DNA of 32,000 nt from Nitrosopumilus maritimus SCM1 (GCF_000018465.1 NC_010085.1:120001-152000); one strand, 5' to 3'. Numbered from the stretch's first letter, positions 10,627 through 31,970 are shown. Numbers and translations: made by a program. Notes: a model not told the origin generated them from the sequence alone.

Positions 10627-12058
10627 CTCAGAAACTATTAATCAAATTTTTTATGACATTTTTAAGAATAATTGGAATGAATATTTTATTTTTGACACAA
10701 TTACTCAGAAAAAAATAAAATATTCTGAATTTTATAATGAAATTCAATTATGTATTGACAAATTAACTAAAAATGGTATTACTGAAGGAAGTACTATATG
10801 TCTAATTCTAGAAAATTCATATAATTTTGTTAAAATAATCTTTTCTTGTATTTTTTCAAATTTAACTGTGGTTCCAATAGATCCACAAAAAGGATCTGAA
10901 GAAATTAAAGAAATTATTGATTCTGTTAATCCACAAACAATTATTTTTGACAATCAAAAAAATATTTTTTCTAAAAATTCAATAGAAATTAGTAAAATTG
11001 TAAATGACACACAATTTTCTAAACCTCAAAAACTTGAACAGATTAGAAATATTGATAGTGATAAGGATTTTCTTATTACTTTTACATCTGGCTCAACTGG
11101 TAAATCAAAAGGTGTTATCCATTCATTAAAAAATTTAATTCATTGTTCATTGTCATTTAATGAAAAATTTCATTTTAATTCAAAAAATGTGTTTTTGCAT
11201 TGTTTGCCGATGTCTTATATGGCTGGGATCTTAAATTCAATCATTTTACCCTTTATATCTAACAGCAAAATAGTCATCATTCCAAGATTTACTGTAAAAA
11301 CTGTACTTGATTTTTGGTCTATTCCACTAAAATACTCAGTCAACACCTTCTGGTTTACTCCTACAATGATTGGATTGATTTTAAAATTTGATAGAAAAAA
11401 CAAAATTGATTTGTCTGACAAAAATCTAATTGGCTGCGTGGCCACTTCTTCTTTAAATACATCTGTAAAGAACGATTTTGAAAAGAAATATGATATTGAA
11501 TTATTCGAAAGTTATGGATTGTCAGAACTTTTGTTTGTAAGTACAAACTCCCCAAATAATAATTCCTTTACAGCTGGACAACTTATTTCTGGTACTAACG
11601 TAAAATTTGATAATGATGAAATTTTGGTAAAAGTTCCATGGATGTTTAAAAAATATTTTAATTCCGAAAAAAATAATTTAGAAAATAATTATTTTTCTAC
11701 AGGAGATCTTGGAAAAATATCTAAAGATAATCTTTTAATCATTACTGGACGGAAAAAAGATTTGATTATCAAAGGTGGAATAAATATTAGTCCTAAAAAA
11801 ATTGAAGATTTTATACTTAATAAAAAATTTTTAAAGGAATGTGTTATTCTAGGTTTTCCTGATCCAATATTGGGTGAAAAAATTGTTTGTTTTATTTTAA
11901 AGAATTCAATAGATACTGATAGCAAAAAAGAACTAAATAAAAAAATTGTTGAACACTTAGGCAATGATTATCATATTGATGAATTTAAAGAACTAATAGA
12001 AATTCCTAAAAACATTAATGGAAAAATTGATAAAATTCAAATTAGAAATTTTTTTTAA
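10601..12058 (+). CDS. AMP-dependent synthetase/ligase (adenylating enzyme, DltA/acyl-ACP ligase-like)
   Basis: Adenylation core motifs are present: TFTSGSTGKSKGV (A3), YGLSE (A5), TGDLG (A7), GRKKDLIIKGGINISP (A8) and a C-terminal NGKIDK (A10 Lys). Its start overlaps the HMGL-like gene by 26 nt. Confidence 0.85.
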   Translation: MSEENKIINSETINQIFYDIFKNNWNEYFIFDTITQKKIKYSEFYNEIQLCIDKLTKNGITEGSTICLILENSYNFVKIIFSCIFSNLTVVPIDPQKGSEEIKEIIDSVNPQTIIFDNQKNIFSKNSIEISKIVNDTQFSKPQKLEQIRNIDSDKDFLITFTSGSTGKSKGVIHSLKNLIHCSLSFNEKFHFNSKNVFLHCLPMSYMAGILNSIILPFISNSKIVIIPRFTVKTVLDFWSIPLKYSVNTFWFTPTMIGLILKFDRKNKIDLSDKNLIGCVATSSLNTSVKNDFEKKYDIELFESYGLSELLFVSTNSPNNNSFTAGQLISGTNVKFDNDEILVKVPWMFKKYFNSEKNNLENNYFSTGDLGKISKDNLLIITGRKKDLIIKGGINISPKKIEDFILNKKFLKECVILGFPDPILGEKIVCFILKNSIDTDSKKELNKKIVEHLGNDYHIDEFKELIEIPKNINGKIDKIQIRNFF

Positions 12059-12141: not shown

Positions 12142-12786
12142 ATGAATGAAATTATCGATTTGACTTATTCAATAAATGAAAAAATGATTACTTATCCTTC
12201 TCCATGGCATCCAAAAGTTTCTCTTGAACGATTAGGTAAAATTGAAGATGTTGGAAGAAATACTCGTAAATTGGTTCTTGGAACCCATACAGGAACTCAT
12301 ATTGATGCTCCTCTACATTTTATCCCTGATGGAAATAGTATAGAAAGTATTCCATTGGAGAAAATTACAGGTACAGTAACTATTTTGGATTTTACAAACT
12401 TGAAAAATAATCACCCAATTACAAAAGAAGAATTACAAGATAAAAAAATCTCAAAACGATTAATTTTTAGATTTGGTTGGCAGAAATATTGGAATACTCC
12501 TAATTTTTATAATGATTATCCATTTTTTACTGAAGATGCTGCAAATTATCTTGTTTCACAAGGTGTTGAATTGATTGGTTATGATACTCCTTCTCCTGAT
12601 AAAAGTAAACAAGATGATGTAGACTCTCCAATTCATAAGATCTTTTTAAGTAATCAAATTGTTCTGTTAGAATATTTATCAAATTTAGATTGTGTACAAA
12701 ATCTTGAAGGATGGAGTATTGTTGTTGCTCCAATGAAAATAGATGGTTCAGACGGTTCTCCTTCAAGAGTTTTTATTTTCAAGTAG
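12142..12786 (+). CDS. Cyclase-family protein (kynurenine formamidase-like metal hydrolase)
   Basis: HTGTHIDAPLHF matches the HxGTHxDxPxH motif of the putative cyclase/arylformamidase family. The protein is 214 aa. Confidence 0.7.
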   Translation: MNEIIDLTYSINEKMITYPSPWHPKVSLERLGKIEDVGRNTRKLVLGTHTGTHIDAPLHFIPDGNSIESIPLEKITGTVTILDFTNLKNNHPITKEELQDKKISKRLIFRFGWQKYWNTPNFYNDYPFFTEDAANYLVSQGVELIGYDTPSPDKSKQDDVDSPIHKIFLSNQIVLLEYLSNLDCVQNLEGWSIVVAPMKIDGSDGSPSRVFIFK

Positions 12787-12794
12787 GTGATTTT

Positions 12795-13049
12795 TTGACA
12801 ATATTGGAATGGTTGCTTGAATGGTTTGAAAATAATTCTGATCTAAAATCAAATGAAATTTTGAGTTCTTTAAATGAAGATTTTCTAATTAAAGGATGGA
12901 TAGACTCATTTACTTTTATAAATTTAATCACTGAAATAGAAGAAAAATATAAAATTTCTTTTAACACTGATGAATTACAAAATGAAAAATTTGCAACTTT
13001 AGATGGTTTAGCTAATATCATTGGAGATAGAATTGAAAAAAACTTATGA
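12795..13049 (+). CDS. Acyl/peptidyl carrier protein (ACP/DltC-like)
   Basis: The frame contains KGWIDSFTFINLITEIEEKY, a D-S phosphopantetheine attachment motif followed by an amphipathic helix. Starting at TTG 12795 gives ~85 aa with the Ser at residue 38, which is typical carrier-protein geometry. The track's ATG at 12711 would overlap the cyclase gene by 76 nt, so the start is uncertain. Confidence 0.7.
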   Translation: MTILEWLLEWFENNSDLKSNEILSSLNEDFLIKGWIDSFTFINLITEIEEKYKISFNTDELQNEKFATLDGLANIIGDRIEKNL

Positions 13050-18000: not shown

Positions 18001-18744
18001 TCATTTCACACTTTCATTAAACTTTGCTTGATTATCAAGAAATTCTTTCTGTTTATGAAAATTAATTTGTATCAAATGTTTATTATTGTTCAAAAAATCT
18101 AGAATCTCTTTTCCAGAAGATAAGATATCTAAATTTTCATATAGCTTTTTAAAAAATTCTAAATCTTCTTTATAATCTAAAGTAAATCTTACATTTTCAT
18201 TTTTTTCAAAATCTTTCAATGGAACAATATCTGTAGTTAAATTAGCTTTTTCTATATATCTTGTTATGACATCTGTATTGATTTCATCAGTGGGTGCAAC
18301 AGAAAATAATTTTTTTATTCCTTTCTCGTTTATTGCTGATGTAAAAAACCCTGTCACAATATCTTTTGGGTGAGTAATCATATCGACTGATTTATTTTTT
18401 AATTCTGAAATTGCTCTTTTTCCAATATCATAACTATATGAAAGATCATCTCCATCAACTAATAATGCATATTGAATTCCAAATTTATTAAAACACTCAT
18501 ACCATCTTTTAATTTTATTTATTAATGGTCCACGAAATATTTCCACATCATTTTTCTTAGCAATATCTTCAAAAATATCATCTTCTTTTGATGTTGATGT
18601 TGCAATAATTACTGGCAATTCTGTTTTTTTTGCTCTTTGAATGACAACGTCTATTGAAGTGAAGTTATTTTTAATTTCCATTATTGCTTTATTTGGTAAT
18701 CTAGTTGAAGAGTTTCTTACTGAAACAATTGCAGCTGAGTTCAT
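18001..18744 (-). CDS. Cytidylyltransferase, CTP_transf_3/SpsF-like (paralogue 2)
   Basis: N-terminal AAIVSVRNSSTRLPNKA matches the same motif as 4078-4836 (ARTGSDRFPKKV). It is the last gene of a four-gene minus-strand operon with 1-4 nt junctions. Confidence 0.7.
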   Translation of the reverse strand: MNSAAIVSVRNSSTRLPNKAIMEIKNNFTSIDVVIQRAKKTELPVIIATSTSKEDDIFEDIAKKNDVEIFRGPLINKIKRWYECFNKFGIQYALLVDGDDLSYSYDIGKRAISELKNKSVDMITHPKDIVTGFFTSAINEKGIKKLFSVAPTDEINTDVITRYIEKANLTTDIVPLKDFEKNENVRFTLDYKEDLEFFKKLYENLDILSSGKEILDFLNNNKHLIQINFHKQKEFLDNQAKFNESVK

Positions 18745-19729: not shown

Positions 19730-20547
19730 TTTACTATCAACCCTGCCTCTGTAATACTCTCTAGAAACTGCCTAAAACCTTTTCCACCATTTTCATGGCC
19801 TTTCCATACTTCTATCGCAAATCCCTTATCTTTATGATTATTTAACATTGGAATAATTTTATCAAATTCCATATTTCCCTCTCCATATTGTAACCCTTCT
19901 CCATCTATATCATCTGCATCTGATAAATGGAAATGATCAACTCTTTTTTCAATTATCTTTAATTGATCTATTAGAGAAATTTGTTTAGTATTACAATACA
20001 GTTGTGCGTGACATAAATCATAGCAAACATTTAGACCCAATTTTTCACAATATTTTTCCATATCATTTGCGTCAAGAAAAACATTTGAATGCCATCTTCC
20101 TCCAAAAAACCAAGCATACGGAGGCATATTCTCCATTAAAAAATTCACTTTACTAATATCCAATTTTTCCACTGCATCAAACATACCATTTTTCATTTTT
20201 TCTTTATCTTCTATGCTAAGTTCAGATAATGAATATCCTCCAGGGTGTACAATTATAGATGGTTTGCCTTGAAATTGTTCATTTAATGACACTGTTTTAT
20301 CAATTGCCTTTTGAATCAATTCAATAGTCTTTTCTTGAGAATGAATTTGGTTTGTTTCTCCAAAACTAACTATATCCAACAATTTTCGCTCAAAATATTC
20401 ATAGCAATGAACAATTAATCTTTGATCAAATTTTTGATCTAATTCTAAATTTAAATCACTATCAGAAAAATGAAATTCTAAAATTTTTGGATTGAATGCC
20501 AACATATCATCCAAATCTTGTTTTCTAACTTTCATTCCTAAAATCAT
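19726..20547 (-). CDS. Xylose-isomerase-like TIM-barrel protein (AP_endonuc_2 family, sugar phosphate isomerase/epimerase-like)
   Basis: The size (273 aa) and the spaced conserved His/Glu/Asp blocks (IIVHPGG, LMENM, YDLCHAQL, HFHLSD, AIEVW) fit this fold. It is sandwiched between NeuB2 and Gmd with 4-bp overlaps on both sides. Confidence 0.55.
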   Translation of the reverse strand: MILGMKVRKQDLDDMLAFNPKILEFHFSDSDLNLELDQKFDQRLIVHCYEYFERKLLDIVSFGETNQIHSQEKTIELIQKAIDKTVSLNEQFQGKPSIIVHPGGYSLSELSIEDKEKMKNGMFDAVEKLDISKVNFLMENMPPYAWFFGGRWHSNVFLDANDMEKYCEKLGLNVCYDLCHAQLYCNTKQISLIDQLKIIEKRVDHFHLSDADDIDGEGLQYGEGNMEFDKIIPMLNNHKDKGFAIEVWKGHENGGKGFRQFLESITEAGLIVN

Positions 20548-21593
20548 AAATCATCATCCTGAAGATAGTCATTTCTTTTAATTTCTCTTTTTGATTTTTT
20601 TCCTAAAATTTCATAATAATATTGTGGAGAAAGTCCTTTAGCTGGACCTTTTATTGCTAAATTATTTTCAGAAAATATTTCATCTTTTTTAATATCATTT
20701 TTTGCAGTAATGCTTTTGCCTAAAACCTCTTTCTGTAAAATTTCTCCCCTGGTCATTTTTTTTATGGGCTTTCCTTTTGCTTTTTCAGCTTCCCTGATAT
20801 CTTTTACTAGTTTTTTAAACTCATCTGGTTCTAATGATGCTGCTTGATCTAAACCTTCCATGGTTTTGTCTAATGTGATATGCCTTTCAACAATTATTGC
20901 TCCTAACATAACTGCAGCTAACGTGCTTACAATCCCTGGTTCATGGCCACTGTAACCAATCAAAACTTGAAATTTTTCTTTTAAGAGTGAAATTAGTTCA
21001 AGATTTAATGTTTCAACTGGAGCTGGATATGTGCTATTACAATGAAGTAAAGCAAATTTGGCATTTTTTTCTTTCATAAAAGAAACTGTTTTTTCTATTT
21101 CATTCATGTTTGACATGCCAGTTGATACAATCAATGGTTTACCTGTTTGAATTAGACTTGATATCAAAGGAAAATTTGTCATATCTGCAGATGCTATTTT
21201 GTAAGCTGGAAGATCAAATTTTTCCAAAAATTCCACACTTGGAATATCCCAAGGTGTGCAAAGAAATGTAATGTGTTTTTCTTTGCAGTACTCGGTTAAT
21301 TCTTTATATGCATCATCATCAAATTCAACTTCATTTAAAACATCTAGAAGAATTTCTAATCCTTGACTTTCAATGTTTGGATCTTTTAGAACATCTTCTC
21401 GATAAATATCATTTAGAGATCTTTTCTGAAACTTTACTGCATTTGCCCCCGCATCTACTGCAACATCAATTAATTTTTTAGCAGTTGTTATGTTGCCGTT
21501 ATGATTGATTCCTATTTCTGCAATGATATATGCAGGTTCTTTAGTGCTTATCCTGTCCTTTCCAATTACTATATCATTTTCATGCTCTGCCAT
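20544..21593 (-). CDS. neuB: NeuB-family nonulosonic acid synthase (paralogue 2, canonical type)
   Basis: IIAEIGINHNGNITTAKKLIDVAVDAGANAVKFQKR is the textbook NeuB N-terminus. GYSGHE and VERHITLD carry the metal-binding His residues, and a C-terminal SAF-like domain (SITAKNDIKKDEIF) is present. Confidence 0.88.
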   Translation of the reverse strand: MAEHENDIVIGKDRISTKEPAYIIAEIGINHNGNITTAKKLIDVAVDAGANAVKFQKRSLNDIYREDVLKDPNIESQGLEILLDVLNEVEFDDDAYKELTEYCKEKHITFLCTPWDIPSVEFLEKFDLPAYKIASADMTNFPLISSLIQTGKPLIVSTGMSNMNEIEKTVSFMKEKNAKFALLHCNSTYPAPVETLNLELISLLKEKFQVLIGYSGHEPGIVSTLAAVMLGAIIVERHITLDKTMEGLDQAASLEPDEFKKLVKDIREAEKAKGKPIKKMTRGEILQKEVLGKSITAKNDIKKDEIFSENNLAIKGPAKGLSPQYYYEILGKKSKREIKRNDYLQDDDL

Positions 21594-21683: not shown

Positions 21684-22691
21684 ATGCAAATTTTAGTAGT
21701 GGGTCTAGGCTCTATGGGAAAACGAAGAATTCGTTGTTTACAAAAACTTGGTTTAAAAAATATTATTGGATTTGATCCAAGACAAGATAGACGAGATGAA
21801 TCTGAAAAACTTTACAAAATTTCAACAGTACCCACAATCAATGATGGCTTAAAACTTAATCCCAAATGTATGATCATCTCTACCCCTCCTGATCTTCATT
21901 ACAAATATGCATTAGTTGCAATGAAAAATAAAATTCATTTTTTCACAGAAGTTAATTTGTCTTCAAATGATGTACAAAAAATTATCAAAAAACTAAATGG
22001 GTTGTCTATATTGGGATTACCTTCAAATACTTTAATCTATCATCCATTGATTAAAAAATTAAAAACTCTAATATCAAAAAACCAAATTGGTAAAACACTA
22101 ACCGTTTATCATCATTTTGGACATTATCTGCCTAATTGGCATCCTTGGGAAGATTATAGGGATTTTTATGTTTCAAAGCGACAAACTGGAGCTGCAAGAG
22201 AAATCGTTCCCTTTGAATTAGTTTGGTTATCGTACATTTTTTCAAGTATAAAATCTGTTTATGGAAGTATTCACAAAGTATCCTCTCTAAAAACAGATAT
22301 TGATGATCTCTATCAAGCAATTATTGAATTTTCAAACGGAATTCAATGCATTTTGGTGATTGATGTAATTTCTGACCCAGCTTTTAGTGAAACTAAGATC
22401 ATAGGCGAAAAAGGTGTTATACTATGTAATCATAATGAAGGTATTTTGAAGATTGGAAAATCATCAAAATGGAAAACTACAAAAATTGAATCTGGTGAAG
22501 TTGCAAAAGGATACAAAGGAAATACTCCTTCAGAATCTCTTTATGTTGCAGAAATAAAAAATTTCTTAGATTCGATTAAACAAAAGAAAAAACCAAATTA
22601 TACTTTTGTAGAAGAATTGAGAATTTTAAAAGTTTTAGATGCAATAGAATTGAGTAATAGAAAGTCCAAAAAAATTGTAATTAAAAAATGA
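21684..22691 (+). CDS. Gfo/Idh/MocA-family oxidoreductase (paralogue 2)
   Basis: It has the N-terminal Rossmann motif ILVVGLGSMGKRRIRCL and a layout similar to 4833-5885. The EKP motif is replaced by TEVN. Confidence 0.65.
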   Translation: MQILVVGLGSMGKRRIRCLQKLGLKNIIGFDPRQDRRDESEKLYKISTVPTINDGLKLNPKCMIISTPPDLHYKYALVAMKNKIHFFTEVNLSSNDVQKIIKKLNGLSILGLPSNTLIYHPLIKKLKTLISKNQIGKTLTVYHHFGHYLPNWHPWEDYRDFYVSKRQTGAAREIVPFELVWLSYIFSSIKSVYGSIHKVSSLKTDIDDLYQAIIEFSNGIQCILVIDVISDPAFSETKIIGEKGVILCNHNEGILKIGKSSKWKTTKIESGEVAKGYKGNTPSESLYVAEIKNFLDSIKQKKKPNYTFVEELRILKVLDAIELSNRKSKKIVIKK

Positions 22692-24052
22692 AACCAAATA
22701 TACTGTTTTTAGTTGTAGACTCTTTACGTTCGGATAAATTTTATGGAGAATCTAAAACATCAATTACTCCGAACCTTGATTCTCTTTTAGAAAACGGAGT
22801 TTATTTTTCTCAGGCAATTAGTTCTGTACCTTCAACATCTCCATCAATGGGAAGTATATTCACTGGACTGTTTCCAATAAAAATTGGAATGGGACCTGAA
22901 TCCTATGAAAAATTAAATCCAAATGTTTCTACTTTTATAGAACATTTTAAAAAAAATGGATATTCAACTTTTGCAACTACTTCAGAGATCAATTCATTTT
23001 TGGGATTAACCGAAGATTTTGATCTGACTCTTCAACAGACTTCTCATAATAATTATTTCAGCCTATTTTCTGGATTGGGGGAAAAAATTACTGAAAAATT
23101 ACGTACTATGAAAAAAGAACCTTGGTTCTTTTATATTCATATTAATGATTTACATCAACCCGTTATTGTACCTGAAAAATACTCTGAAGAAAAATTTGGA
23201 ATAACAGATTACGAAAAAATGCTTTCAGCAATAGATTTTTGGATTGGAAAATTTTTTGAACAAATAGATTTTTCAAAAACTCTAGTAGTTTTAACTGCAG
23301 ATCATGGTGAATATGTTCGCTCACTCCAAATTGATGGAAAAATGATCAATCTTGAATCAAGCTCATCTGAAAAGACCTTGTGGAAGTTGGGGAATAAAAT
23401 TCCCAATTTTCTTTATGGGCCAAAAAGAAAATTATCTTCAATATTACAAAAAACTAGAGATAAAAATCGTCAAAAGAAAATTGAAGAACTTGATCTTTCT
23501 GAATATGAAAAAAGAGTATTATCAATGTCTAGAATGAGTTCAGGTTCTCATGTTTTTGATGATGTGTTAAAAGTTCCATTAGTTTTCAAAGGATTCCCGA
23601 TAAAAAACCCAAAACTAATTTCCCAACAAGTTGGCTTGTTGGACATCTTTCCCACTATTACAGATCTTATTGAAATTCCAAAGATTAATGCAAAAATTGA
23701 TGGTAATAGTTTGTATCCATTGATTCAAAATGAAAAAATTGATGAAAAACCATTATTTATTCAAAGTATGCCGTCAATATCTGATGATAATCTAATTCTT
23801 GTTGGAATTAGAACAAACTCTTTCAAATATTTTCGTGAAAAGAACAACAAAAAGAAAAACAAACTTTTTGATTTGGCAAATGATCCCTTAGAAGAAAAAG
23901 ATATCTCTTCTCAAAAACCAGAGATTGTTTTAAAAATGGAAAAAATTCTCCAAGAATATCTGATCACTGAAAATAATTTTTCTCCAGACTCTTTACAGAA
24001 TGATGAAAGAAAGAAAGTTGAAGACGAATTAAAAAAACTGGGATATCTTTAA
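22688..24052 (+). CDS. Alkaline-phosphatase-superfamily ('sulfatase'-family) protein with a Thr nucleophile; NPP/phosphodiesterase- or phospho(no)transferase-like
   Basis: ILFLVVDSLRSD is the metal-binding first strand, and ITPNLDSL follows it. The nucleophile motif reads T50-S-P-S-M-G-S-I-F-T-G-L-F-P where arylsulfatases have C-x-P-x-R-xxxxTG. It looks closer to the NPP motif T-F-P-N-H-Y-S-I-V-T-G-L-Y-P. LTADHGE is also present. I see no N-terminal TM segment or signal peptide. Confidence 0.7.
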   Translation: MKPNILFLVVDSLRSDKFYGESKTSITPNLDSLLENGVYFSQAISSVPSTSPSMGSIFTGLFPIKIGMGPESYEKLNPNVSTFIEHFKKNGYSTFATTSEINSFLGLTEDFDLTLQQTSHNNYFSLFSGLGEKITEKLRTMKKEPWFFYIHINDLHQPVIVPEKYSEEKFGITDYEKMLSAIDFWIGKFFEQIDFSKTLVVLTADHGEYVRSLQIDGKMINLESSSSEKTLWKLGNKIPNFLYGPKRKLSSILQKTRDKNRQKKIEELDLSEYEKRVLSMSRMSSGSHVFDDVLKVPLVFKGFPIKNPKLISQQVGLLDIFPTITDLIEIPKINAKIDGNSLYPLIQNEKIDEKPLFIQSMPSISDDNLILVGIRTNSFKYFREKNNKKKNKLFDLANDPLEEKDISSQKPEIVLKMEKILQEYLITENNFSPDSLQNDERKKVEDELKKLGYL

Positions 24053-24142: not shown

Positions 24143-25516
24143 ATGGAAAAAAAGATTGATTTCAAGCCTGATTCTTATTTGATTCGTTCTGGAAACAATT
24201 TTTTGGGAATTTTAAATGATATTAAACGAAGACCAGAAGATGCTGCAAATGAATTGGGTGTTTCTATTGAAGAAATTAACTCAATAATTTCTGGAAAGCA
24301 AAAAATCTCCCCATCTTTAATTGAAAAAGCCGTAAATATCTGGCCAGTTAATGAAAGAGATTTCTATATTGTTTCCGATGATTGTTCTTCTGGAATCTTA
24401 ATTATGACTTCTCAAGATTCAATCAAATCATCTCGCATTATGGAAAGAGCTGGAAAACCATATTATGAATATCGAGATACTGCTATGAGCAAAACTGCTC
24501 CTTTTAGGCCTGAATGGATTTTGGAATTATGCAAAGTTGAAAATAATGACCCTGAAAATCCAAAAGCGCAATGGAATAATGGACATTTCATGCATCAATT
24601 TACATATTTTATCGGAGAAGTAAATTTCTATTACAAAGATCCTGAAGGAAAAAAACATGTCGCAATTATGAATACTGGTGATTCAATGTATATTACTCCA
24701 TTTACTCCTCACACCTTTACTACAAGAGATGGTGCATCTCAAAATGGTTTAATTTTAGCATTAACTTATGGGAGTAAACTTACTGGTGATATTCAGCAAG
24801 AATTGTCGTCATTATCGCTTGATTGTGGAAGTCAATATGCATTAGATTTTACTAATCACGAAAATGCCAGTTTATCATTATTAGAATATTATTTTGAATT
24901 ATCAAATCTGACTAAAGAAAAATTTGCAAAACGAACAAACTTTTCTATGGAAACACTTGCTGATTTCTTTACAAAAAAGAAATTACCAACTTTTGATGAA
25001 CTTAAGATTATTGCTAAAGCTCTAAATGTAAATTCTAGAGATTTAATGCCTAATGATTTGACTGAATCTAAAGTTATTGTAAAAACTCATGATCAATGTG
25101 ATCATTGGAAATACCCTGAATCTGGAAATTATGAATTTTACGAACTTGCATCAACCACCGCTTTGCCTCACTCCAAAGCATTTGAAATTGATGTTTCATC
25201 ATCAGAAGATCTCAATCTTGATCTGAAAGTTGGATTACATCAATATGTGTATAATATTGGCGATTCTGCACTGACAATTAATTGGAATTATGAGAATAAA
25301 ACATATCAGAAATCATTGAATCCTGGCGATTCTGCTTATATCAAACCTTTTGTTCCTCACAATTTCCGTGGAAATGGCAAAATTCTAATTTTGAGAATTG
25401 GTGGAAAAATTTCTGGTGATTCACAACGAGAATTATCATTTGTAGGAAGGGAAAATACTCAACGAGCAATTTCTGAAACAATGCAATGGTTTGATCCAAA
25501 AGGTTCAAACTCTTAA
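24143..25516 (+). CDS. mpnS: Methylphosphonate synthase (non-heme Fe(II) 2-hydroxyethylphosphonate oxygenase, HEPD/HppE family)
   Basis: The architecture is a tandem (HTH-like + cupin) x2. Numbering from ATG 24143, the metal ligands are His148 (24584-24586), Gln152 (24596-24598) and His190 (24710-24712). Phe162 and Ile184 are also present, matching my recollection of the published N. maritimus MPnS structure. It is clustered with ppm, ppd and an Fe-ADH. The track's TTG at 24140 adds one residue and is probably not the start. Confidence 0.9.
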   Translation: MEKKIDFKPDSYLIRSGNNFLGILNDIKRRPEDAANELGVSIEEINSIISGKQKISPSLIEKAVNIWPVNERDFYIVSDDCSSGILIMTSQDSIKSSRIMERAGKPYYEYRDTAMSKTAPFRPEWILELCKVENNDPENPKAQWNNGHFMHQFTYFIGEVNFYYKDPEGKKHVAIMNTGDSMYITPFTPHTFTTRDGASQNGLILALTYGSKLTGDIQQELSSLSLDCGSQYALDFTNHENASLSLLEYYFELSNLTKEKFAKRTNFSMETLADFFTKKKLPTFDELKIIAKALNVNSRDLMPNDLTESKVIVKTHDQCDHWKYPESGNYEFYELASTTALPHSKAFEIDVSSSEDLNLDLKVGLHQYVYNIGDSALTINWNYENKTYQKSLNPGDSAYIKPFVPHNFRGNGKILILRIGGKISGDSQRELSFVGRENTQRAISETMQWFDPKGSNS

Positions 25517-25546: not shown

Positions 25547-26671
25547 ATGGCAAAAGAAAATTTGATCATCATAATGATTGATGGTGGAAGATTTGATTAT
25601 GGTTTAAATTCAAAAGTTTTTCAGGAAGTAGAAAAAACTTCAGTATTTTTTTCAAATTCTATAACTTATGGGCCCCATACAATTGCTGCAATGCATGCAG
25701 TATTTAGTGGATGTTATGGAACTAGAACAGGAACAAACAGTTATTGGTCTACATATGATTTTAAAAAAGAAAGTTTTGTCACACTCACTGAATATTTGTC
25801 TTCTAATGGATATTTTACATCTGCAGATCTGATTAATGAGTTAGTAGTTCCTAAACAAGGATTTGATGAATATATCGTACATGATGAAATTAATGACGAT
25901 TTAACTTTAAGACACAAAAAAATCTTATCAAAAATTCAAACTAAAAATCAAAAGGGTCAACCATCTTTTCTTTATTTACATTATAGTAAAATTCACACAG
26001 GTATAATGAATGAGGTCTTAAAAAAATATGATAATTTTAGTGACGAATTCTTTGATAATCCTGATCAAAACAAAAATAGATATGAAAAATTATTTATTTC
26101 TGCTGAAAATTATTTAAAAACAATTTTAGAAGAAATTAAAAAACTAGGATTGGATGATAATTCTCTTATTCTAATTATGTCTGATCATGGTGTAAGTGTA
26201 GGTGAAAAATTTGGTGAACGAGCTTATGGAGCATTCTGTTATGATTACACGTTAAAAACAATCACCCATTTCATTTCAAAAAAATTTCAATCAAAAAGAA
26301 TTACACAGCAAGTACGCACAATAGATTTCATGCCTACAATTTTACAATTTTTAAAGATCCCATTAGATAATACCAAAGAACCATTAGACGGGGTTTCTTT
26401 GATGCCCTTGATCAATAACAAAAAAATTGATGAACAATTTGCCTATTCTGAAACAGGTAATCCTCTAAAAGAAAAACAACCTCCAAAAATTCCAAATGTT
26501 ATGTCTATTCGTAACTCAAATTGGAAACTAATATACAATTTACACAATGATTCCAAAGAAATGTACAATTTGCTTGAAGATCCGTTAGAATTAAAAAATT
26601 TGATTGGAACAAATAACGAAATTGAATCCATGCTTTGGAATGAATTACTCAAAATCCAACAATCTAACTAA
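25547..26671 (+). CDS. Alkaline-phosphatase-superfamily ('sulfatase'-family) protein with a Thr nucleophile (paralogue 2)
   Basis: LIIIMIDGGRFDY is the first strand with the metal-binding Asp. The nucleophile-position motif is T45-I-A-A-M-H-A-V-F-S-G, with Thr for Cys and Met for Arg, the same substitutions as in 22688-24052. MSDHGVS is also present. It lies 30 nt downstream of mpnS on the same strand. Confidence 0.65.
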   Translation: MAKENLIIIMIDGGRFDYGLNSKVFQEVEKTSVFFSNSITYGPHTIAAMHAVFSGCYGTRTGTNSYWSTYDFKKESFVTLTEYLSSNGYFTSADLINELVVPKQGFDEYIVHDEINDDLTLRHKKILSKIQTKNQKGQPSFLYLHYSKIHTGIMNEVLKKYDNFSDEFFDNPDQNKNRYEKLFISAENYLKTILEEIKKLGLDDNSLILIMSDHGVSVGEKFGERAYGAFCYDYTLKTITHFISKKFQSKRITQQVRTIDFMPTILQFLKIPLDNTKEPLDGVSLMPLINNKKIDEQFAYSETGNPLKEKQPPKIPNVMSIRNSNWKLIYNLHNDSKEMYNLLEDPLELKNLIGTNNEIESMLWNELLKIQQSN

Positions 26672-26672
26672 T

Positions 26673-27416
26673 TTATTTAAATAATTCTTCAGCTCTGTTT
26701 AGATCCTGTTTTGTATCAATTTCACACCATTTACCTGAAATGAATATTGGTGAAACTTGAATTGAATTATTAATTAATTCTTGAATCATATCTGTTAGAT
26801 ATCCTTTTTCTAAAGAAACTGCATTATGGAATTTTCCCGTATGGTTTTTTTGTAAGTAATCAATTTTTTCTAAAAATACTTTTGTTCCATGTTCACTCAT
26901 TTTTATAATTCCTAGAAATTCCCCAACAATATTTGAAGTACTTTGAATATTCTTTTTAATTTCAACAATGTTATTTTTTTTATCTAACAATACATTCTCT
27001 GCTTCAGAAAATGGATGTTCTGTTCTCCCTTCATAAGATTTTTTCCAGTCTAAATCAATTGCAATAGCAATATCTTTTGTTGTGTTAAGTATTTGATGAA
27101 TAATATTTTCATCAAAAATTATATCCGAATACAAAATTATTACTTCTCCTTGTAAGAAATTTTTAGCCACCATCAAACTTCCTAAAATATCATGCTTTTC
27201 ATTTTCAAAATCTTTGACTATTTTCATTCCTTTATTATCAAATTGATTATGTTTTCCTGAAATAACTATGATTTCTGAAATATTATTTGATTCAAATGCT
27301 TTAATTTGTCTCTCTAAGATAGTTTTTCCATTTACAGGAATTAGTGATTTTGGAATTTCTTTAAATTCTTTCGAAATTCTTTGACCTTTTCCTGCTGCAA
27401 TTATGATTACTTTCAT
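26673..27416 (-). CDS. Nucleotidyltransferase (NTP_transferase fold, LicC/PntC-like; candidate phosphonate cytidylyltransferase)
   Basis: It has the N-terminal MKVIIIAAGKGQRIS (G-x-G-x-R) signature and is 247 aa. It is the last gene of the ppm-ppdA-ppdB operon, with a 7-nt gap. The substrate is inferred from context only. Confidence 0.7.
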   Translation of the reverse strand: MKVIIIAAGKGQRISKEFKEIPKSLIPVNGKTILERQIKAFESNNISEIIVISGKHNQFDNKGMKIVKDFENEKHDILGSLMVAKNFLQGEVIILYSDIIFDENIIHQILNTTKDIAIAIDLDWKKSYEGRTEHPFSEAENVLLDKKNNIVEIKKNIQSTSNIVGEFLGIIKMSEHGTKVFLEKIDYLQKNHTGKFHNAVSLEKGYLTDMIQELINNSIQVSPIFISGKWCEIDTKQDLNRAEELFK

Positions 27417-27423
27417 GAATATT

Positions 27424-27972
27424 CTATAATGATTTTTTTACTCTATCTCTAATATCTTTAGGTTTCCAGATTACTCTTTTGCTTCTTTCTTTACTTGTAG
27501 AAATTTTTACCAACAAAAAGATCGGTCCATTGAGTCTCTTAATTTTTTTCAACATACTTTCTAATTGATTTTTGGATTTAGCTGTAAATGTTGTGTAGTT
27601 ACCAATTTTTGCAATTTTTTCTAAATGAATTTTTGAAGAATTTGTAGGCTGACCTCCAGTTGATTCATGACTACTATTATCAAAAACTACATGGATCAAA
27701 TTTTTTGGTTTCATACTACCAATAGTTACAATTGAACCTAAATTCATCAAAATATTCCCATCTCCATCAAACACAAAAACTCGTTTTTTTGGATTTTTTA
27801 TTGCTAATCCTAATCCTATTGATGATGCCAATCCCATTGACCCGATCATGTAAAAATTTGATTCCTTATCACATACTTCAAACAAATCTCTACTCATAAA
27901 GCCATTAGCTGAAACAATTGGAGAATTTTTTATATTTCTAGCTATGGTTGCCACTGCTTCTTTTCTAATCAT
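27424..27972 (-). CDS. ppd: Phosphonopyruvate decarboxylase, beta subunit (ThDP-binding C-terminal domain, ComE-like)
   Basis: It has the ThDP motif FDGDGNILMNLGS...VVFDNSSHESTGGQ (GDG-x~25-N). It overlaps the alpha-subunit gene by 8 nt and lies directly downstream of ppm. Confidence 0.85.
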   Translation of the reverse strand: MIRKEAVATIARNIKNSPIVSANGFMSRDLFEVCDKESNFYMIGSMGLASSIGLGLAIKNPKKRVFVFDGDGNILMNLGSIVTIGSMKPKNLIHVVFDNSSHESTGGQPTNSSKIHLEKIAKIGNYTTFTAKSKNQLESMLKKIKRLNGPIFLLVKISTSKERSKRVIWKPKDIRDRVKKSL

Positions 27973-28453
27973 GAAATAATCTCCGAATTACTAAGGCACA
28001 AGGTTTGTTGTTTTTCAAATTTTCTATTGCCCAATCACAACAAGATTTCCAATTAGAGTCAGTTAACACCTTTGATTTTAAACCAATAATTTTTAATAAA
28101 TCAGGTTGAATTTTTCCAATTTTTAGATGTTCAGGAGCATCATCTGATAAGTACCCTCTCCATCCTATCAAAAAAATTATTGGAATTTCGTATAATTGAA
28201 CTAATGATGTAATTGTACTTATGGAATTGGCAAATCCAGCATTTTGCATGAATACTAATGATGAACTTTTTGATATAGTAGTACCAGTTGCTATTCCAAT
28301 AGCTTCTTCTTCTCTAGTTGTAATGATGGAATTTTTATTTTTAATAGATTCGTCAATAAAGTGTTTCAGTGTAGAATCTGGGACCCCTATAAAATTTTCA
28401 ATTTTTTTCTTTTTTAGATAATGAAATAATTTTCTTTGATTTTTTTCATTCAA
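27965..28453 (-). CDS. ppd: Phosphonopyruvate decarboxylase, alpha subunit (ThDP pyrimidine-binding N-terminal domain, ComD-like)
   Basis: GVPDSTLKHF and REEEAIGIATG (catalytic Glu) are typical of the N-terminal domain of ThDP decarboxylases. A 4-bp overlap joins it to ppm. Confidence 0.85.
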   Translation of the reverse strand: MNEKNQRKLFHYLKKKKIENFIGVPDSTLKHFIDESIKNKNSIITTREEEAIGIATGTTISKSSSLVFMQNAGFANSISTITSLVQLYEIPIIFLIGWRGYLSDDAPEHLKIGKIQPDLLKIIGLKSKVLTDSNWKSCCDWAIENLKNNKPCALVIRRLFHD

Positions 28454-29349
28454 TTTATGTAACCCAATTTTTTAAGATTTTTTTCTATATCTGTTTCTTG
28501 TTTTTTTATTTCATACATTTCTTGCAGTTTAAAAATTTCTTCCATTGTAGTCATATTTGATTTTATTTGACTGAGACTTTTAGCTTTAGATAGTTGCTCC
28601 AGATGTTCTTTCATTGCTAAATGTGCTACTCGAAGTGATTGATTTGCATAAATTGCTATTCTTATTTTGTGTTTTTCTAATTCATCAATAGTTACATTTG
28701 GATATGATGTTGGAATTGCAATTATGGGTATATCTCCGTCCCACAAATCACAAAATTCAAAAATCTCATCAGGAGTTTTACTCTTTGAATGAATTAAAAT
28801 CGCATCTGCCCCAGCTTTTTTGTATGCATTAGCTCTTTTCAATGCTTCATCTACCCCTAATCCAGCTATTAATGCCTCCACTCTGGCAATGATCATAAAA
28901 TTTTCATTTACTTTAGCATTTTTAGCTGCAATTAATTTTGCAACAAAATCTTTTTCTGATAACAATTGTTGATTACCGTTTTCCAATAAACTGTTTTGTT
29001 TAGGAAAAATCTTATCCTCAATACTAACTGCAGCCACTCCTGCACTTTCATATTTTTTTACCATGTGACTCACATTGCTCGGTCCACCAAACCCTGTATC
29101 GCAATCTGCAATAACTGGAATTGAGCAAGCATCAGTCATATTAGATGCTACAGAAAGAAATTCTGTCATTGTAAGAATACTGGCATCTGGTAATGCATGA
29201 GTTGCAGAAATTGCAAAACTCCCGGCCCAAATTGCATCAAAACCGCTCAATTCCACTAATTTTGCCGACATTGCATCAAATGCACCAGCAACTTTCAAAA
29301 TTGATTTTTGATTAAGTTGAGAGTTTAGTATGTTTGCACCATCATTCAT
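28450..29349 (-). CDS. ppm: Phosphoenolpyruvate phosphomutase (PEP mutase)
   Basis: It belongs to the isocitrate-lyase/PEP-mutase superfamily (ADCDTGFGG). It carries the PepM-specific signature EDK-x5-NS as E111-D-K-I-F-P-K-Q-N-S120 (nt 28990-29019, checked codon by codon). Confidence 0.92.
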   Translation of the reverse strand: MNDGANILNSQLNQKSILKVAGAFDAMSAKLVELSGFDAIWAGSFAISATHALPDASILTMTEFLSVASNMTDACSIPVIADCDTGFGGPSNVSHMVKKYESAGVAAVSIEDKIFPKQNSLLENGNQQLLSEKDFVAKLIAAKNAKVNENFMIIARVEALIAGLGVDEALKRANAYKKAGADAILIHSKSKTPDEIFEFCDLWDGDIPIIAIPTSYPNVTIDELEKHKIRIAIYANQSLRVAHLAMKEHLEQLSKAKSLSQIKSNMTTMEEIFKLQEMYEIKKQETDIEKNLKKLGYIN

Positions 29350-29411: not shown

Positions 29412-30347
29412 ATGTGGACCATTAAACAGCCTCCAAAAATCATTTTTGGTAAAAATTGTGTATCTGAGTTTATTTTTCCGACAAAGTGTTTAGTTGTAAC
29501 ATCTAAAGGAGCAAAATCTAGAGGATGGCTTGATTATTGTGGGTTAAATGATCAAATGATTTTTAATAATGTTGAACCAAACCCTTCAATCGAAACAACA
29601 GAAAAAATTATTTCAGAATTCCAAAATTCTGATTTTACACATATTGTTGGTATTGGAGGGGGCAGCTCAATGGATGTTGCCAAATATTGTGGTTTTAAAA
29701 TGAATAAACAAAAACTCATGATTCCAACTACTTTTGGAAGCGGTAGTGAAGTAACCCGTATTTCCGTATTGAAGGTTAATGGAAAGAAAAAAAGTTTTCA
29801 TGATGATGGAATCTTTTCTGATACTGCATTAATTGATTCATTTTTTCTTGAAAATTCTACACCTAAAATTTTTAAGAATTCTGTCATAGATGCATGTGCA
29901 CAATGTACTGAAGCATATGATAGTAAATCATCAAATCCATATACGAAGTTTTTTTGTAATCAAGCTTTTGAATTGTTAGAAGAAGGAATTCTTACAAATA
30001 ATAATGAAAAAATTGTATTGGGATCCTTATTTGATGGATTGGGATTTGGAAATTCTTCTACTACTTTAGGACATGCACTGTCCTATGTTTTTTCAAATGA
30101 GGGAATTTCTCATGGTCATGCTTTAGCATTTACTACTTCTGCTGCTCACAAATTTAACAAATCAAAATATTTTGAACGATTTGAAAAACTAGTTTCTTTC
30201 TTAGGTTTTGAACCCATCACATTAGAGCAATCATTAGATCATGCTACAGAAACAATCTTACCTGATAAAAAACACCTTGATAATAACCCAATTCCTGTAT
30301 CGAAAGACGACATCTATAACTTGTTAAAAACAATTATTTCAAAATAA
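29412..30347 (+). CDS. pdh: Iron-containing alcohol dehydrogenase (phosphonoacetaldehyde reductase, making 2-hydroxyethylphosphonate)
   Basis: It has the Fe-ADH motifs GIGGGSSMDVAKY and LGHALSY...ISHGHALA (metal-binding His residues). It is divergent from ppm. At 311 aa it is compact compared with typical ~380-aa family members. Substrate assignment comes from context and analogy with PhpC/FomC. Confidence 0.8.
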   Translation: MWTIKQPPKIIFGKNCVSEFIFPTKCLVVTSKGAKSRGWLDYCGLNDQMIFNNVEPNPSIETTEKIISEFQNSDFTHIVGIGGGSSMDVAKYCGFKMNKQKLMIPTTFGSGSEVTRISVLKVNGKKKSFHDDGIFSDTALIDSFFLENSTPKIFKNSVIDACAQCTEAYDSKSSNPYTKFFCNQAFELLEEGILTNNNEKIVLGSLFDGLGFGNSSTTLGHALSYVFSNEGISHGHALAFTTSAAHKFNKSKYFERFEKLVSFLGFEPITLEQSLDHATETILPDKKHLDNNPIPVSKDDIYNLLKTIISK

Positions 30348-30348
30348 T

Positions 30349-30645
30349 TTACTCATCAAAAATTATAACTTCATTTTGATTTTCGATGACTCTATAATTT
30401 TTTAAATCTCTACCTGGATTAGTTACACAATTTCCTTTAGAAATATCAAATTCCCATCCATGACCCCCACAAGTTAATGTTTGTCCTTTAACAAATCCCA
30501 ATTCTAATGGCCATTTGGCATGAGGACAGATTCCACTAACTGCAAAAATTTGTTCCCCGTTATTAAAAACAATAATTTTTGGACTGACTGATACTTCGAC
30601 TAATTTACCAATAGGAATATCTTGTTTTTTTACAGTGAATTTCAT
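30349..30645 (-). CDS. Rieske [2Fe-2S] domain protein
   Basis: C40-P-H42 ... C59-G-G-H62, with 16 residues between H42 and C59, fits the canonical C-x-H-x15-17-C-x2-H. The protein is 98 aa and starts 2 nt after the stop of the upstream MBL-fold gene. Confidence 0.85.
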   Translation of the reverse strand: MKFTVKKQDIPIGKLVEVSVSPKIIVFNNGEQIFAVSGICPHAKWPLELGFVKGQTLTCGGHGWEFDISKGNCVTNPGRDLKNYRVIENQNEVIIFDE

Positions 30646-30647
30646 AA

Positions 30648-31970
30648 TTAATGTAATCTATTATAGATTTTGTATATATTGCTAATTCTTGTTGGATCTG
30701 GATCATATAGCAAATTAATGAAATGTTCGTTCCATTGATCAGGTTTTCTATCCCCTTGCCACCTAGCTGATAAAAATAATGTTTCCCAAAGTAGTTCATT
30801 ATTAACTGCTTTTTGAACTAAATGTGCAGGGATTTTCATCCAATAATTCCAATCATCCGTTTTTCCTTCTGTTACAAAAGAACCTGATTCCTTATCTTTA
30901 GAAATATCTAAAATATACTCTCCTCCATTTTTACCGTCTGCAATCAGTTGAACTTTCATATCGATATGTTTTCGTGCAACAGGGTTTTCAGAGATTATTT
31001 TGTTGAAATAATCATATATCTCATTAGATAATTTTTGTGAAGCTTCTCCTTCTTCCTTCCATCGTCTATTAAGATCTTCTTGAACTTGGATTGAAAACTC
31101 ATTTACTACATCTGTCTTGTCTGATGAAAAAATTGGATTATTATTTTTGGTGTGTGTGCCATCAATTGAAATTTCATCATCTGCTGCCATGGCTACCACT
31201 TCTGTTCCTAAATTTCCACTATTATCCCACGCCTTTTTTGGTTCATCAGGACATCCAAAAACTGAGATGGGATAGTTTAGTTTTAGTTGAGATTCATGAG
31301 GAAATAATGGGCCTCCAGCATACGGAATAGCAAATTTTGGTTTTATAGTATTTACATAATTTACAAATCCATTGATTTTATTGTCTTTTCTTTTAATAGC
31401 AATTTCATCTCGTTTCTCTTTTGAATAATTATATGCATCTGGATACCAGTTTGCCACAGAATACATGAAAAATCCAATATCTGGTTTTGCAGCATTTACT
31501 TTCTTAAGGGATTCAAAATCCATTTTACAATCAGTCTGACAAAAAACTGTTCCTTCTTTGCTTTTGATAAGTAAAGCGGAATCCTCAAACATCAAATCTG
31601 GGTTTTTAATAGATGTGATTTCTAAACCCTCATTAATTTTTTCAGGTTTCCAAGAGTCAAGAACAGTGATGTTAGAAAATCCTAATTCTTTGATAGCATT
31701 ATGAAATCTATTTGTTGGAAAATTACAAATATAGATTTGTGTTTTTTTATCAAATTGACATAATGATTCTGCTTGAAAATGATCTTCATGTTCATGAGAA
31801 ATGTAAATTGCGTCAACGTCAGTAGGAATGTTTTTCTTTGTAGCTGGTTCTCTTCTAAGTGTATACCATGTGTTTACATTGCAAGGACCAACAATCCATG
31901 GATCAACAATTATTCTAAAATTATTCGTTTCAATTAGTGTACAAGCTTGTCCTAAAAATCTTACAAACAT
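30648..31970 (-). CDS. MBL-fold (Lactamase_B_3-like) protein; resembles the catalytic domain of CMP-N-acetylneuraminate hydroxylase (CMAH)
   Basis: It has H59-E-H-E-D-H64 (HxHxDH) preceded by IVDPWIVGP. By eye it is collinear over its full length with vertebrate CMAH as I remember it: DPWLIGP; IYISHLHSDH; ...CPFAGYF versus AIPYAGGP; GLLWDELYIG versus ELLWETLFLS. This needs a real alignment. Confidence 0.6.
   Translation of the reverse strand: MFVRFLGQACTLIETNNFRIIVDPWIVGPCNVNTWYTLRREPATKKNIPTDVDAIYISHEHEDHFQAESLCQFDKKTQIYICNFPTNRFHNAIKELGFSNITVLDSWKPEKINEGLEITSIKNPDLMFEDSALLIKSKEGTVFCQTDCKMDFESLKKVNAAKPDIGFFMYSVANWYPDAYNYSKEKRDEIAIKRKDNKINGFVNYVNTIKPKFAIPYAGGPLFPHESQLKLNYPISVFGCPDEPKKAWDNSGNLGTEVVAMAADDEISIDGTHTKNNNPIFSSDKTDVVNEFSIQVQEDLNRRWKEEGEASQKLSNEIYDYFNKIISENPVARKHIDMKVQLIADGKNGGEYILDISKDKESGSFVTEGKTDDWNYWMKIPAHLVQKAVNNELLWETLFLSARWQGDRKPDQWNEHFINLLYDPDPTRISNIYKIYNRLH

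What the first reader, a model, noticed from the sequence alone, without database searches (positions are those of the whole stretch)
24584..24712. The oxygenase carries the 2-His-1-Gln triad and the Phe162/Ile184 pair that separate MPnS from HEPD
Codon-level reading gives CAT His148 (24584-24586), CAA Gln152 (24596-24598) and CAC His190 (24710-24712), in the context NNGH-FMH-Q-FTYF...ITPFTPH. Phe162 (VNF-YYK) and Ile184 (SMY-I-TPF) are also present. From my memory of the MPnS structural work (Born et al., Science 2017), Gln152 replaces the Glu ligand of HEPD. Phe162 and Ile184 pin the Gln in place, while HEPD-type enzymes carry Tyr and Gly there. These residues were used as the signature to tell MPnS from HEPD in metagenomes. 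Choosing ATG 24143 rather than the track's TTG 24140 reproduces the published numbering.
Basis: partly seen in the sequence, partly recalled or inferred. Interest (0 to 1): 0.85.

Follow-up and report, generated by a model that had tools for sequence, protein, structure and literature searches.

The report
Known methylphosphonate synthase, signature residues confirmed

Summary
Observation confirmed. With ATG 24143 as codon 1, the codons are His148 CAT 24584-24586, Gln152 CAA 24596-24598, Phe162 TTC 24626-24628, Ile184 ATT 24692-24694 and His190 CAC 24710-24712.

The 457-aa product is 100% identical over its full length to PDB 6B9S/6B9T 'Methylphosphonate synthase'. It is also identical to the NCBI protein 'methylphosphonate synthase [Nitrosopumilus maritimus]'. 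The gene sits beside PEP mutase, a split phosphonopyruvate decarboxylase and an Fe-alcohol dehydrogenase.

H148/Q152/F162/I-or-V184/H190 is the published MPnS filter (PMC9381506 Table S2).

Two details of the interpretation need correcting:
- The 2-His-1-Gln triad does not by itself separate MPnS from HEPD. The S. albus-type (class II) HEPD 6B9R has His/Gln/His too and differs only by Tyr/Gly at positions 162/184.
- The Glu ligand of class I HEPD (PhpD Glu176) aligns with Ile184, not with Gln152, which aligns with PhpD Ala133. Gln152 sits where the related epoxidase HppE has Glu142.

Verdict: correct, ordinary and already known. Interest is low.

The parts
24143..25516 (+). mpnS, methylphosphonate synthase, 457 aa plus stop. 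The mechanical ORF starts one codon upstream at TTG 24140.
   Evidence: 100% identical over residues 1-457 to PDB 6B9S/6B9T 'Methylphosphonate synthase'. Identical to the NCBI protein 'methylphosphonate synthase [Nitrosopumilus maritimus]'. Pfam HTH_3 matches residues 249-300, with a weak Cupin_2 match at 390-412.
24584..24586 (+). His148 (CAT), Fe(II) ligand
   Evidence: Codon verified. Invariant in 48 diverse homologues. Aligns with 6B9R H149, PhpD H129 and HppE H138. Listed as an essential mpnS residue in PMC9381506 Table S2.
24596..24598 (+). Gln152 (CAA), third Fe(II) ligand
   Evidence: Codon verified. Invariant. Aligns with 6B9R Q153, HppE E142 and PhpD A133. Listed in PMC9381506 Table S2.
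24626..24628 (+). Phe162 (TTC), second-shell residue diagnostic of MPnS (Tyr in class II HEPD)
   Evidence: Codon verified. Phe in all 120 closest relatives. Aligns with Tyr163 of 6B9R.
24692..24694 (+). Ile184 (ATT), second-shell residue diagnostic of MPnS (Gly in class II HEPD, the Glu176 ligand in class I HEPD)
   Evidence: Codon verified. Ile in 119 and Val in 1 of the 120 closest relatives. Aligns with Gly184 of 6B9R and Glu176 of PhpD.
24710..24712 (+). His190 (CAC), Fe(II) ligand
   Evidence: Codon verified. Invariant. Aligns with 6B9R H190, PhpD H182 and HppE H180.
24224..24226 (+). Lys28 (AAA), invariant. Probable phosphonate-binding residue, equivalent to PhpD Lys16.
   Evidence: Invariant column. 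Codon verified. Aligned to PhpD K16. The substrate-binding role is recalled from the HEPD literature and was not tested here.
24446..24448 (+). Arg102 (AGA), invariant. Probable phosphonate-binding residue, equivalent to PhpD Arg90.
   Evidence: The role is from memory.
24470..24472 (+). Tyr110 (TAT), invariant. Probable substrate-binding residue, equivalent to PhpD Tyr98.
   Evidence: The role is from memory.
24575..24577 (+). Asn145 (AAT), invariant. Probable substrate-binding residue, equivalent to PhpD Asn126.
   Evidence: The role is from memory.
28450..29349 (-). ppm, PEP mutase (first step of the pathway that supplies 2-HEP)
   Evidence: Pfam PEP_mutase E 3.8e-58. TIGR02320 at 295 bits, just under its 319.55 cut-off. 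The EDK(X)5NS motif is present as EDKIFPKQNS at residue 111.
27424..28453 (-). ppd, phosphonopyruvate decarboxylase, split into two overlapping ORFs (27965-28453 N-terminal TPP domain, 27424-27972 C-terminal TPP domain)
   Evidence: TIGR03297 matches profile positions 2-152 and 171-353 on the two ORFs. Pfam TPP_enzyme_N and TPP_enzyme_C.
29412..30347 (+). pdh, Fe-dependent alcohol dehydrogenase (phosphonoacetaldehyde reductase, makes 2-HEP)
   Evidence: Pfam Fe-ADH and ADH_Fe_C. TIGR03405 Phn_Fe-ADH matches partially.
26673..27416 (-). Nucleotidyltransferase (NTP_transf_3), presumed to activate the phosphonate for attachment to a glycan
   Evidence: Pfam. The same domain is fused to the N-terminus of many MPnS homologues. 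The function is inferred.
22688..24052 (+). Sulfatase / alkaline-phosphatase-superfamily protein upstream of mpnS
   Evidence: Pfam Sulfatase E 1.2e-31.
25547..26671 (+). Second sulfatase-family protein downstream of mpnS
   Evidence: Pfam Sulfatase E 2e-21.

Best explanation
ORF 24143-25516 is mpnS of Nitrosopumilus maritimus. It encodes the non-haem Fe(II), O2-dependent methylphosphonate synthase that cleaves the C1-C2 bond of 2-hydroxyethylphosphonate (2-HEP) to give methylphosphonate plus CO2/bicarbonate.

Shown here:
- The protein is identical to the crystallised enzyme.
- His148, Gln152 and His190 are invariant, and they align with the His/Glu/His metal triad positions of HppE.
- Phe162 and Ile184 are the MPnS-type residues, where class II HEPD has Tyr/Gly.
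- The three genes that make 2-HEP from PEP (ppm, ppd, pdh) lie within 5 kb.

From the literature: MPnS and HEPD share a methylphosphonate-radical intermediate. In HEPD the radical rebounds onto Fe(III)-OH to give hydroxymethylphosphonate. In MPnS it abstracts the hydrogen of the formate co-product to give methylphosphonate (PMC5350257).

Inferred, or recalled from Born et al. 2017 (not readable here): the bulky Phe162 and Ile184 hold Gln152 on the iron. This keeps formate positioned for H-abstraction. Tyr/Gly in class II HEPD let the Gln move, which favours OH rebound.
For:: 100% identity over residues 1-457 to 6B9S/6B9T 'Methylphosphonate synthase'. The next hit is 6B9R (HEPD) at E 3.4e-85, with Q153/Y163/G184 aligned to Q152/F162/I184.
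identical NCBI/UniRef entry named methylphosphonate synthase [Nitrosopumilus maritimus], on a 1,645,259-bp contig.
the window DNA is 100% identical to independent assemblies that carry the gene.
all five codons verified.
120/120 closest relatives carry H-Q-F-(I/V)-H.
homologues split mainly into HQFIH (102 of 150 representatives; 44 of 80 genomes) and HQYGH (24 representatives; 35 genomes, mostly actinomycetes).
H148, Q152 and H190 are invariant.
the published filter for mpnS is H148/Q152/F162/I-V184/H190.
Tyr-Gly is described as diagnostic of class II HEPD.
ppm (with the EDK(X)5NS motif), split ppd and pdh are adjacent.
N. maritimus MpnS (CP000866) was used experimentally to make methylphosphonate from 2-HEP.
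the mechanism of the branch point between the two enzymes.
Against: Nothing found argues against the identification. The limits are these:
- Metal coordination could not be inspected in the coordinates with these tools. The ligand assignment rests on invariance, on alignment to HppE and PhpD, and on a secondary source (PMC9381506 Table S2).
- The primary structural paper (Born et al. 2017) and the discovery paper (Metcalf et al. 2012) are not in the held library.
- NCBIfam has no MPnS model, so family scans return only weak HTH hits.
- The native start codon (ATG 24143 or TTG 24140) is not determined experimentally here.
Confidence: 0.97

Rival explanations
1. The enzyme is a class II 2-hydroxyethylphosphonate dioxygenase (HEPD). 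It would use the same 2-His-1-Gln iron site but produce hydroxymethylphosphonate plus formate.
For: Same length, same architecture and the same H-Q-H triad as 6B9R. That chain aligns over residues 23-449 at E 3.4e-85.
Against: Positions 162/184 are Phe/Ile, not Tyr/Gly. The sequence is identical to the chain deposited as MPnS. All 120 closest relatives carry F and I/V. N. maritimus MpnS yields methylphosphonate in vitro (PMC12619172).
Confidence: 0.01
2. The ORF is an XRE-family helix-turn-helix transcriptional regulator, as several sources name its homologues, and the cupin domains are sensory.
For: Pfam HTH_3 matches residues 249-300 at E 4.9e-12. JGI and NCBI label several homologues 'transcriptional regulator with XRE-family HTH domain' or 'helix-turn-helix domain-containing protein'.
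Against: The protein is identical to a structurally and enzymatically characterised oxygenase. The same HTH-like domain is part of the fold of HEPD and HppE, which match the same region. The regulator names are automatic annotations driven by the Pfam hit.
Confidence: 0.01
3. Translation starts at TTG 24140, giving a 458-aa protein. On that reading every residue number shifts by one, so the ligands would be His149, Gln153 and His191.
For: TTG 24140 is in frame and is the first possible start after the upstream stop.
Against: The PDB and NCBI sequences and five independent gene calls use the ATG, giving 457 aa. Most close homologues start 'ME' at the aligned position. The choice affects numbering only, not function.
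Confidence: 0.08

Closest known systems
Methylphosphonate synthase (MPnS) of Nitrosopumilus maritimus SCM1, PDB 6B9S/6B9T
   Same: Everything. All 457 residues are identical, the organism name matches, and so does the gene neighbourhood.
   Different: Nothing detectable. This is the same protein.
Class II HEPD (Streptomyces albus-type), PDB 6B9R
   Same: Full-length homologue, aligned over residues 23-449. It has the same His/Gln/His iron ligands at aligned positions 149/153/190 and acts on the same substrate, 2-HEP.
   Different: It has Tyr163/Gly184 where MPnS has Phe162/Ile184. Its product is hydroxymethylphosphonate plus formate instead of methylphosphonate plus CO2 (PMC5350257; PMC8976061).
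Class I HEPD (PhpD of Streptomyces viridochromogenes), PDB 3G7D/3GBF/3RZZ/4YAR
   Same: Same bi-cupin plus HTH architecture and the same substrate. His129 and His182 align with His148 and His190. Lys16, Arg90, Tyr98 and Asn126 align with the invariant Lys28, Arg102, Tyr110 and Asn145.
   Different: A distant relative: E about 1e-4 with a single sequence and 1e-23 with a profile. Its third ligand is Glu176, which aligns with Ile184. The residue aligned with Gln152 is Ala133. The 4YAR chain carries His at exactly that Glu position.
HppE, (S)-2-hydroxypropylphosphonate epoxidase, PDB 1ZZ6 and others
   Same: An HTH plus cupin module and Fe(II) phosphonate chemistry. H138/E142/H180 align with H148/Q152/H190.
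   Different: A single module of about 198 aa. It has Glu where MPnS has Gln, and it forms an epoxide rather than cleaving a C-C bond.

Membership tests
Methylphosphonate synthase (MPnS, EC 1.13.11.73) | Full-length sequence homology to the characterised enzyme | tested here: met
   100% identity over residues 1-457 to 6B9S_A. Identical NCBI entry named MPnS [N. maritimus].
Methylphosphonate synthase (MPnS, EC 1.13.11.73) | 2-His-1-Gln iron ligands at positions 148/152/190 | tested here: met
   Codons verified. Invariant columns. Listed in PMC9381506 Table S2. Direct coordination geometry could not be inspected.
Methylphosphonate synthase (MPnS, EC 1.13.11.73) | Phe at 162 and Ile/Val at 184 (not Tyr/Gly) | tested here: met
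   TTC Phe162 and ATT Ile184. The aligned residues in 6B9R are Tyr163/Gly184.
Methylphosphonate synthase (MPnS, EC 1.13.11.73) | Genomic association with the 2-HEP pathway (ppm, ppd, pdh) | tested here: met
   PEP mutase 28450-29349, split ppd 27424-28453 and Fe-ADH 29412-30347.
Methylphosphonate synthase (MPnS, EC 1.13.11.73) | Converts 2-HEP and O2 to methylphosphonate and CO2/HCO3- | not testable with these tools
   Published for this protein. PMC12619172 used N. maritimus MpnS (CP000866) to make methylphosphonate.
Class II HEPD | Tyr/Gly motif at the positions equivalent to 162/184 | tested here: not met
   Phe/Ile are present instead. The motif is called diagnostic in PMC8976061.
Class I HEPD (PhpD type) | Glu ligand at the position equivalent to 184 (PhpD Glu176), with Ala at the position equivalent to 152 | tested here: not met
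   The profile alignment puts PhpD E176 opposite I184 and A133 opposite Q152. Table S2 of PMC9381506 lists A/Q152 and E/G184 for hepD.
HppE epoxidase | Single HTH-cupin module of about 198 aa with a His/Glu/His triad | tested here: not met
   The query is a 457-aa double module with Gln opposite HppE Glu142.

The most novel reading that the evidence does not exclude
Nothing about the five residues is new. The least conventional reading the data leave open concerns the partner enzyme. The stand-alone nucleotidyltransferase at 26673-27416 may act directly on the MPnS product, making a nucleotide-activated methylphosphonate, as one functional unit with MPnS. The basis is that many distant homologues with the F/I signature are natural fusions of an NTP_transf_3 domain to the MPnS-like body. 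Separately, a minority of homologues keep H-Q-H but carry neither F/I nor Y/G at positions 162/184 (L/G, V/M, H/T, A/G and others). These could define a third, uncharacterised product outcome in the family.
Probability: 0.25. Interest if true: 0.35.

Novelty: already known. Interest (0 to 1): 0.08.

Why it matters
MPnS supplies the methylphosphonate whose breakdown by C-P lyase is a leading explanation for methane supersaturation in oxygenated ocean water. The F162/I184 signature is what allows mpnS to be counted separately from hepD in metagenomes. For this window the practical value is a secure annotation, and it shows that the first-stage reader can recover a published active-site signature from raw DNA. 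It adds no new biology.

One correction is useful to anyone applying the signature. The Gln ligand alone does not discriminate MPnS from class II HEPD. The Glu of class I HEPD lies at the position of Ile184, not of Gln152.

Tried and rejected
Literature access:
- I tried to read the primary papers: Born et al. 2017 by DOI and as PMC5901744, Metcalf et al. 2012 (PMC3466329), Peck et al. 2015 (PMC4487810) and Cicchillo et al. 2009 (PMC2874955). None is held.
- Statements about how Phe162/Ile184 restrain Gln152, and about the Y163F/G184I conversion of S. albus HEPD, therefore rest on memory and are marked as such.
- Full-text searches for Gln152/Phe162/Ile184, Q152/F162/I184, Glu176/His129 and Y163F/G184I returned no paper with those terms in an MPnS context. 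The useful support came from a supplementary table and one sentence in PMC8976061.

Database scans:
- The NCBIfam scan of the protein gave only sub-threshold HTH-repressor hits, because there is no MPnS model.
- Single-sequence phmmer aligned PhpD only from residue 178 onward. A 48-sequence profile was needed to align the N-terminal cupin and to place H129 and A133.
- In that profile alignment Phe162 falls next to a 2-residue insertion in PhpD, opposite Gly145. The published table gives Ile for class I. I treat the class I equivalent of position 162 as unresolved.
- The genome-contig scan did not return N. maritimus itself. The best hit was 71% identical, from Ca. N. salarius. The organism assignment therefore rests on the protein's source name.

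Considered and not done: structure prediction was judged unnecessary, because an experimental structure of the identical sequence exists.

Full report
**Observation.** I read the region, translated the ORF from ATG 24143 and checked each codon by script. His148 is CAT 24584-24586. Gln152 is CAA 24596-24598. Phe162 is TTC 24626-24628. Ile184 is ATT 24692-24694. His190 is CAC 24710-24712. The quoted contexts (NNGHFMHQFTYF, VNFYYK, SMYITPFTPH) are correct.

**Identity.** A search of all PDB chains gives a 100% match over residues 1-457 to 6B9S/6B9T, deposited as 'Methylphosphonate synthase'. The large protein collection holds the identical sequence. It is named 'methylphosphonate synthase [Nitrosopumilus maritimus]' by NCBI and UniRef and lies on a 1,645,259-bp contig. 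Five independent assemblies carrying this protein match the window DNA at 99.96-100% over up to 9.1 kb. All five call the 457-aa product. The window is therefore the mpnS locus of N. maritimus, and the ATG start reproduces the published numbering. Most close homologues also begin 'ME..' at the aligned position.

**Context.** The genes that make 2-hydroxyethylphosphonate lie within 5 kb:
- PEP mutase, 28450-29349 on the minus strand. Pfam E 3.8e-58, with the EDK(X)5NS motif present as EDKIFPKQNS.
- Phosphonopyruvate decarboxylase, split into two ORFs that match the two halves of TIGR03297.
- An Fe-dependent alcohol dehydrogenase, 29412-30347.

A nucleotidyltransferase and two sulfatase-family genes flank mpnS. 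The rest of the window encodes sugar-modifying and nonulosonic-acid-type enzymes, including two NeuB homologues, two CMP-transferases, a DegT aminotransferase and dehydratases. G+C is uniformly low, 24.5-31% per 2-kb window and 28% overall.

- In 48 homologues that are 27-58% identical to the query, H148, Q152 and H190 are invariant columns.
- All 120 closest relatives (63-100% identical) read H-Q-F-(I/V)-H, with Ile in 119 and Val in 1.
- Among 150 representatives of clusters at 50% identity, 102 read HQFIH and 24 read HQYGH. The rest are fragments or minor variants.
- Among 80 species genomes, 44 read HQFIH. These are Nitrosopumilaceae, other archaeal MAGs, Chloroflexota, Myxococcota, Gammaproteobacteria and others. 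Another 35 read HQYGH, mostly Streptomyces, Kitasatospora, Nonomuraea, Amycolatopsis and relatives. One reads HQYAH.
- A published metagenome survey used exactly these positions as its filter. For mpnS it required H148, Q152, F162, I/V184 and H190. For hepD it required H148, A/Q152, I/Y162, E/G184 and H190 (PMC9381506 Suppl. Table S2).
- PMC8976061 calls the Tyr-Gly motif 'diagnostic of class II HEPD'.
- The bioRxiv survey 10.1101/2020.11.04.368217 likewise kept only sequences with 'essential catalytic residues'.

**First correction to the interpretation.** The second-best PDB hit, 6B9R (HEPD, E 3.4e-85), aligns H149/Q153/H190 with H148/Q152/H190. It differs at Tyr163 and Gly184. The 2-His-1-Gln triad is therefore shared with class II HEPD. 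Only the Phe/Ile pair separates MPnS from it. The family-wide counts agree, because H-Q-H is constant across both the F/I and the Y/G groups.

**Second correction.** The classical HEPD, PhpD (3G7D), is a distant relative. In both the single-sequence and the profile alignments, TGDSYVEPSYCPH of PhpD lies opposite TGDSMYITPFTPH of MPnS. This puts PhpD Glu176 opposite Ile184 and His182 opposite His190. The profile alignment puts His129 opposite His148 and Ala133 opposite Gln152. The PDB chain 4YAR differs from wild-type PhpD by His at exactly this Glu position, which fits its being the targeted ligand. So 'Gln152 replaces the Glu ligand of HEPD' holds functionally but not positionally. By contrast, HppE aligns H138/E142/H180 with H148/Q152/H190. 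Gln152 therefore occupies the canonical cupin carboxylate position. That these HppE and PhpD residues are the metal ligands is from my memory of the structural literature. The hepD row of Table S2 (A/Q152, E/G184) agrees with it.

**Mechanism.** MPnS and HEPD both oxidise 2-HEP through a common methylphosphonate radical plus formate. In HEPD the radical rebounds onto Fe(III)-OH and gives hydroxymethylphosphonate. In MPnS it abstracts the formate hydrogen and gives methylphosphonate and CO2 (PMC5350257). The overall reaction is 2-HEP + O2 -> MPn + HCO3-, and it has been run with this very enzyme (PMC12619172). My recollection of Born et al. 2017, which is not held, is as follows: Phe162 and Ile184 fix Gln152 on the iron so that formate stays in place, Tyr/Gly in class II HEPD allow the Gln to shift, and a Y163F/G184I variant of the S. 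albus enzyme gains MPnS activity. Other invariant residues (Lys28, Arg102, Tyr110, Asn145) align with PhpD Lys16, Arg90, Tyr98 and Asn126. I recall these as the phosphonate-binding residues.

**Rivals.**
- Class II HEPD is excluded by the F/I pair and by identity to the deposited MPnS.
- The 'XRE-family regulator' label on many homologues comes from the HTH_3 Pfam hit. That domain is part of the HEPD/MPnS/HppE fold.
- A TTG start would only shift the numbering by one.

**Verdict.** The object is the type member of a known enzyme family with a solved structure. It is already known, and interest is low.

Noticed in passing
Proteins P0123, P0146, P0189, P0198, P0209, P0241 (homologues); compare window 26673-27416: Many distant MPnS/HEPD-family representatives of 700-815 aa are natural fusions with an N-terminal NTP_transf_3 nucleotidyltransferase domain. 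This is the same family as the separate gene next to mpnS in the window. P0214 (813 aa) is instead fused to an Fe-alcohol dehydrogenase. The fusions suggest a tight functional coupling of phosphonate synthesis and nucleotidyl activation.
   Followed up: partly
Homologues (e.g. P0144 and P0178 L/G; P0214 and P0222 V/M; P0167 H/T; P0180 A/G; P0132 L/F; P0229 Y/I): About a dozen cluster representatives keep the His/Gln/His triad but carry neither Phe/Ile nor Tyr/Gly at positions 162/184. Their product specificity cannot be read from the published signature.
   Followed up: no
window 7275-7622, 10601-12058, 12711-13049: A 4'-phosphopantetheinyl transferase, an AMP-binding (adenylating) enzyme and a small ORF with no Pfam hit lie together in the sugar-modification part of the island. 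The small ORF contains '..GWIDSFTFINLITEIEEKY..' and looks like an acyl/peptidyl carrier protein, probably starting downstream of the listed ATG. A cyclase-family protein and an aminoglycoside-N-acetyltransferase-like protein are adjacent. Together this suggests carrier-protein-dependent acylation of a sugar.
   Followed up: no
window 842-1897 and 20544-21593; 4078-4836 and 18001-18744: There are two NeuB-family synthases and two CMP-sugar cytidylyltransferases (CTP_transf_3) in one 32-kb window, i.e. apparently two nonulosonic-acid pathways next to the phosphonate genes.
   Followed up: no
window 30349-30645 and 30648-31970: A small Rieske [2Fe-2S] protein and a 440-aa metallo-beta-lactamase-fold protein sit directly after the phosphonoacetaldehyde reductase gene, on the opposite strand. 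Their role in the cluster is unknown.
   Followed up: no
L008 (JANWIZ010000035.1) and L018-L021: A contig binned as 'Patescibacteria group bacterium' carries a 66%-identical, Nitrosopumilaceae-like MPnS. Several MAGs labelled 'uncultured Methanosarcinales archaeon' carry versions that are 53-56% identical. These may be binning or labelling artefacts, or real transfers.
   Followed up: no
L003 1051-2414 and L004: In two assemblies of old sequencing runs (SRR000223, SRR000222) the DNA differs from the window by one or two single-base gaps. In L003 the upstream sulfatase gene is split into two ORFs. These are most likely read errors rather than real variants.
   Followed up: partly
whole window: G+C is only 24.5-31% in every 2-kb window and 28% overall. 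From memory this is lower than the N. maritimus genome average of about 34%. That would fit a variable, possibly horizontally acquired, cell-surface glycan island.
   Followed up: no
Genome-contig scan: The species-representative genome collection returned no 100% match to this gene, although the peptide pattern used (YYEYRDTAMS) is present in it. The best hit was Ca. Nitrosopumilus salarius at 71%. The source genome seems to be absent or masked in that collection.
   Followed up: no
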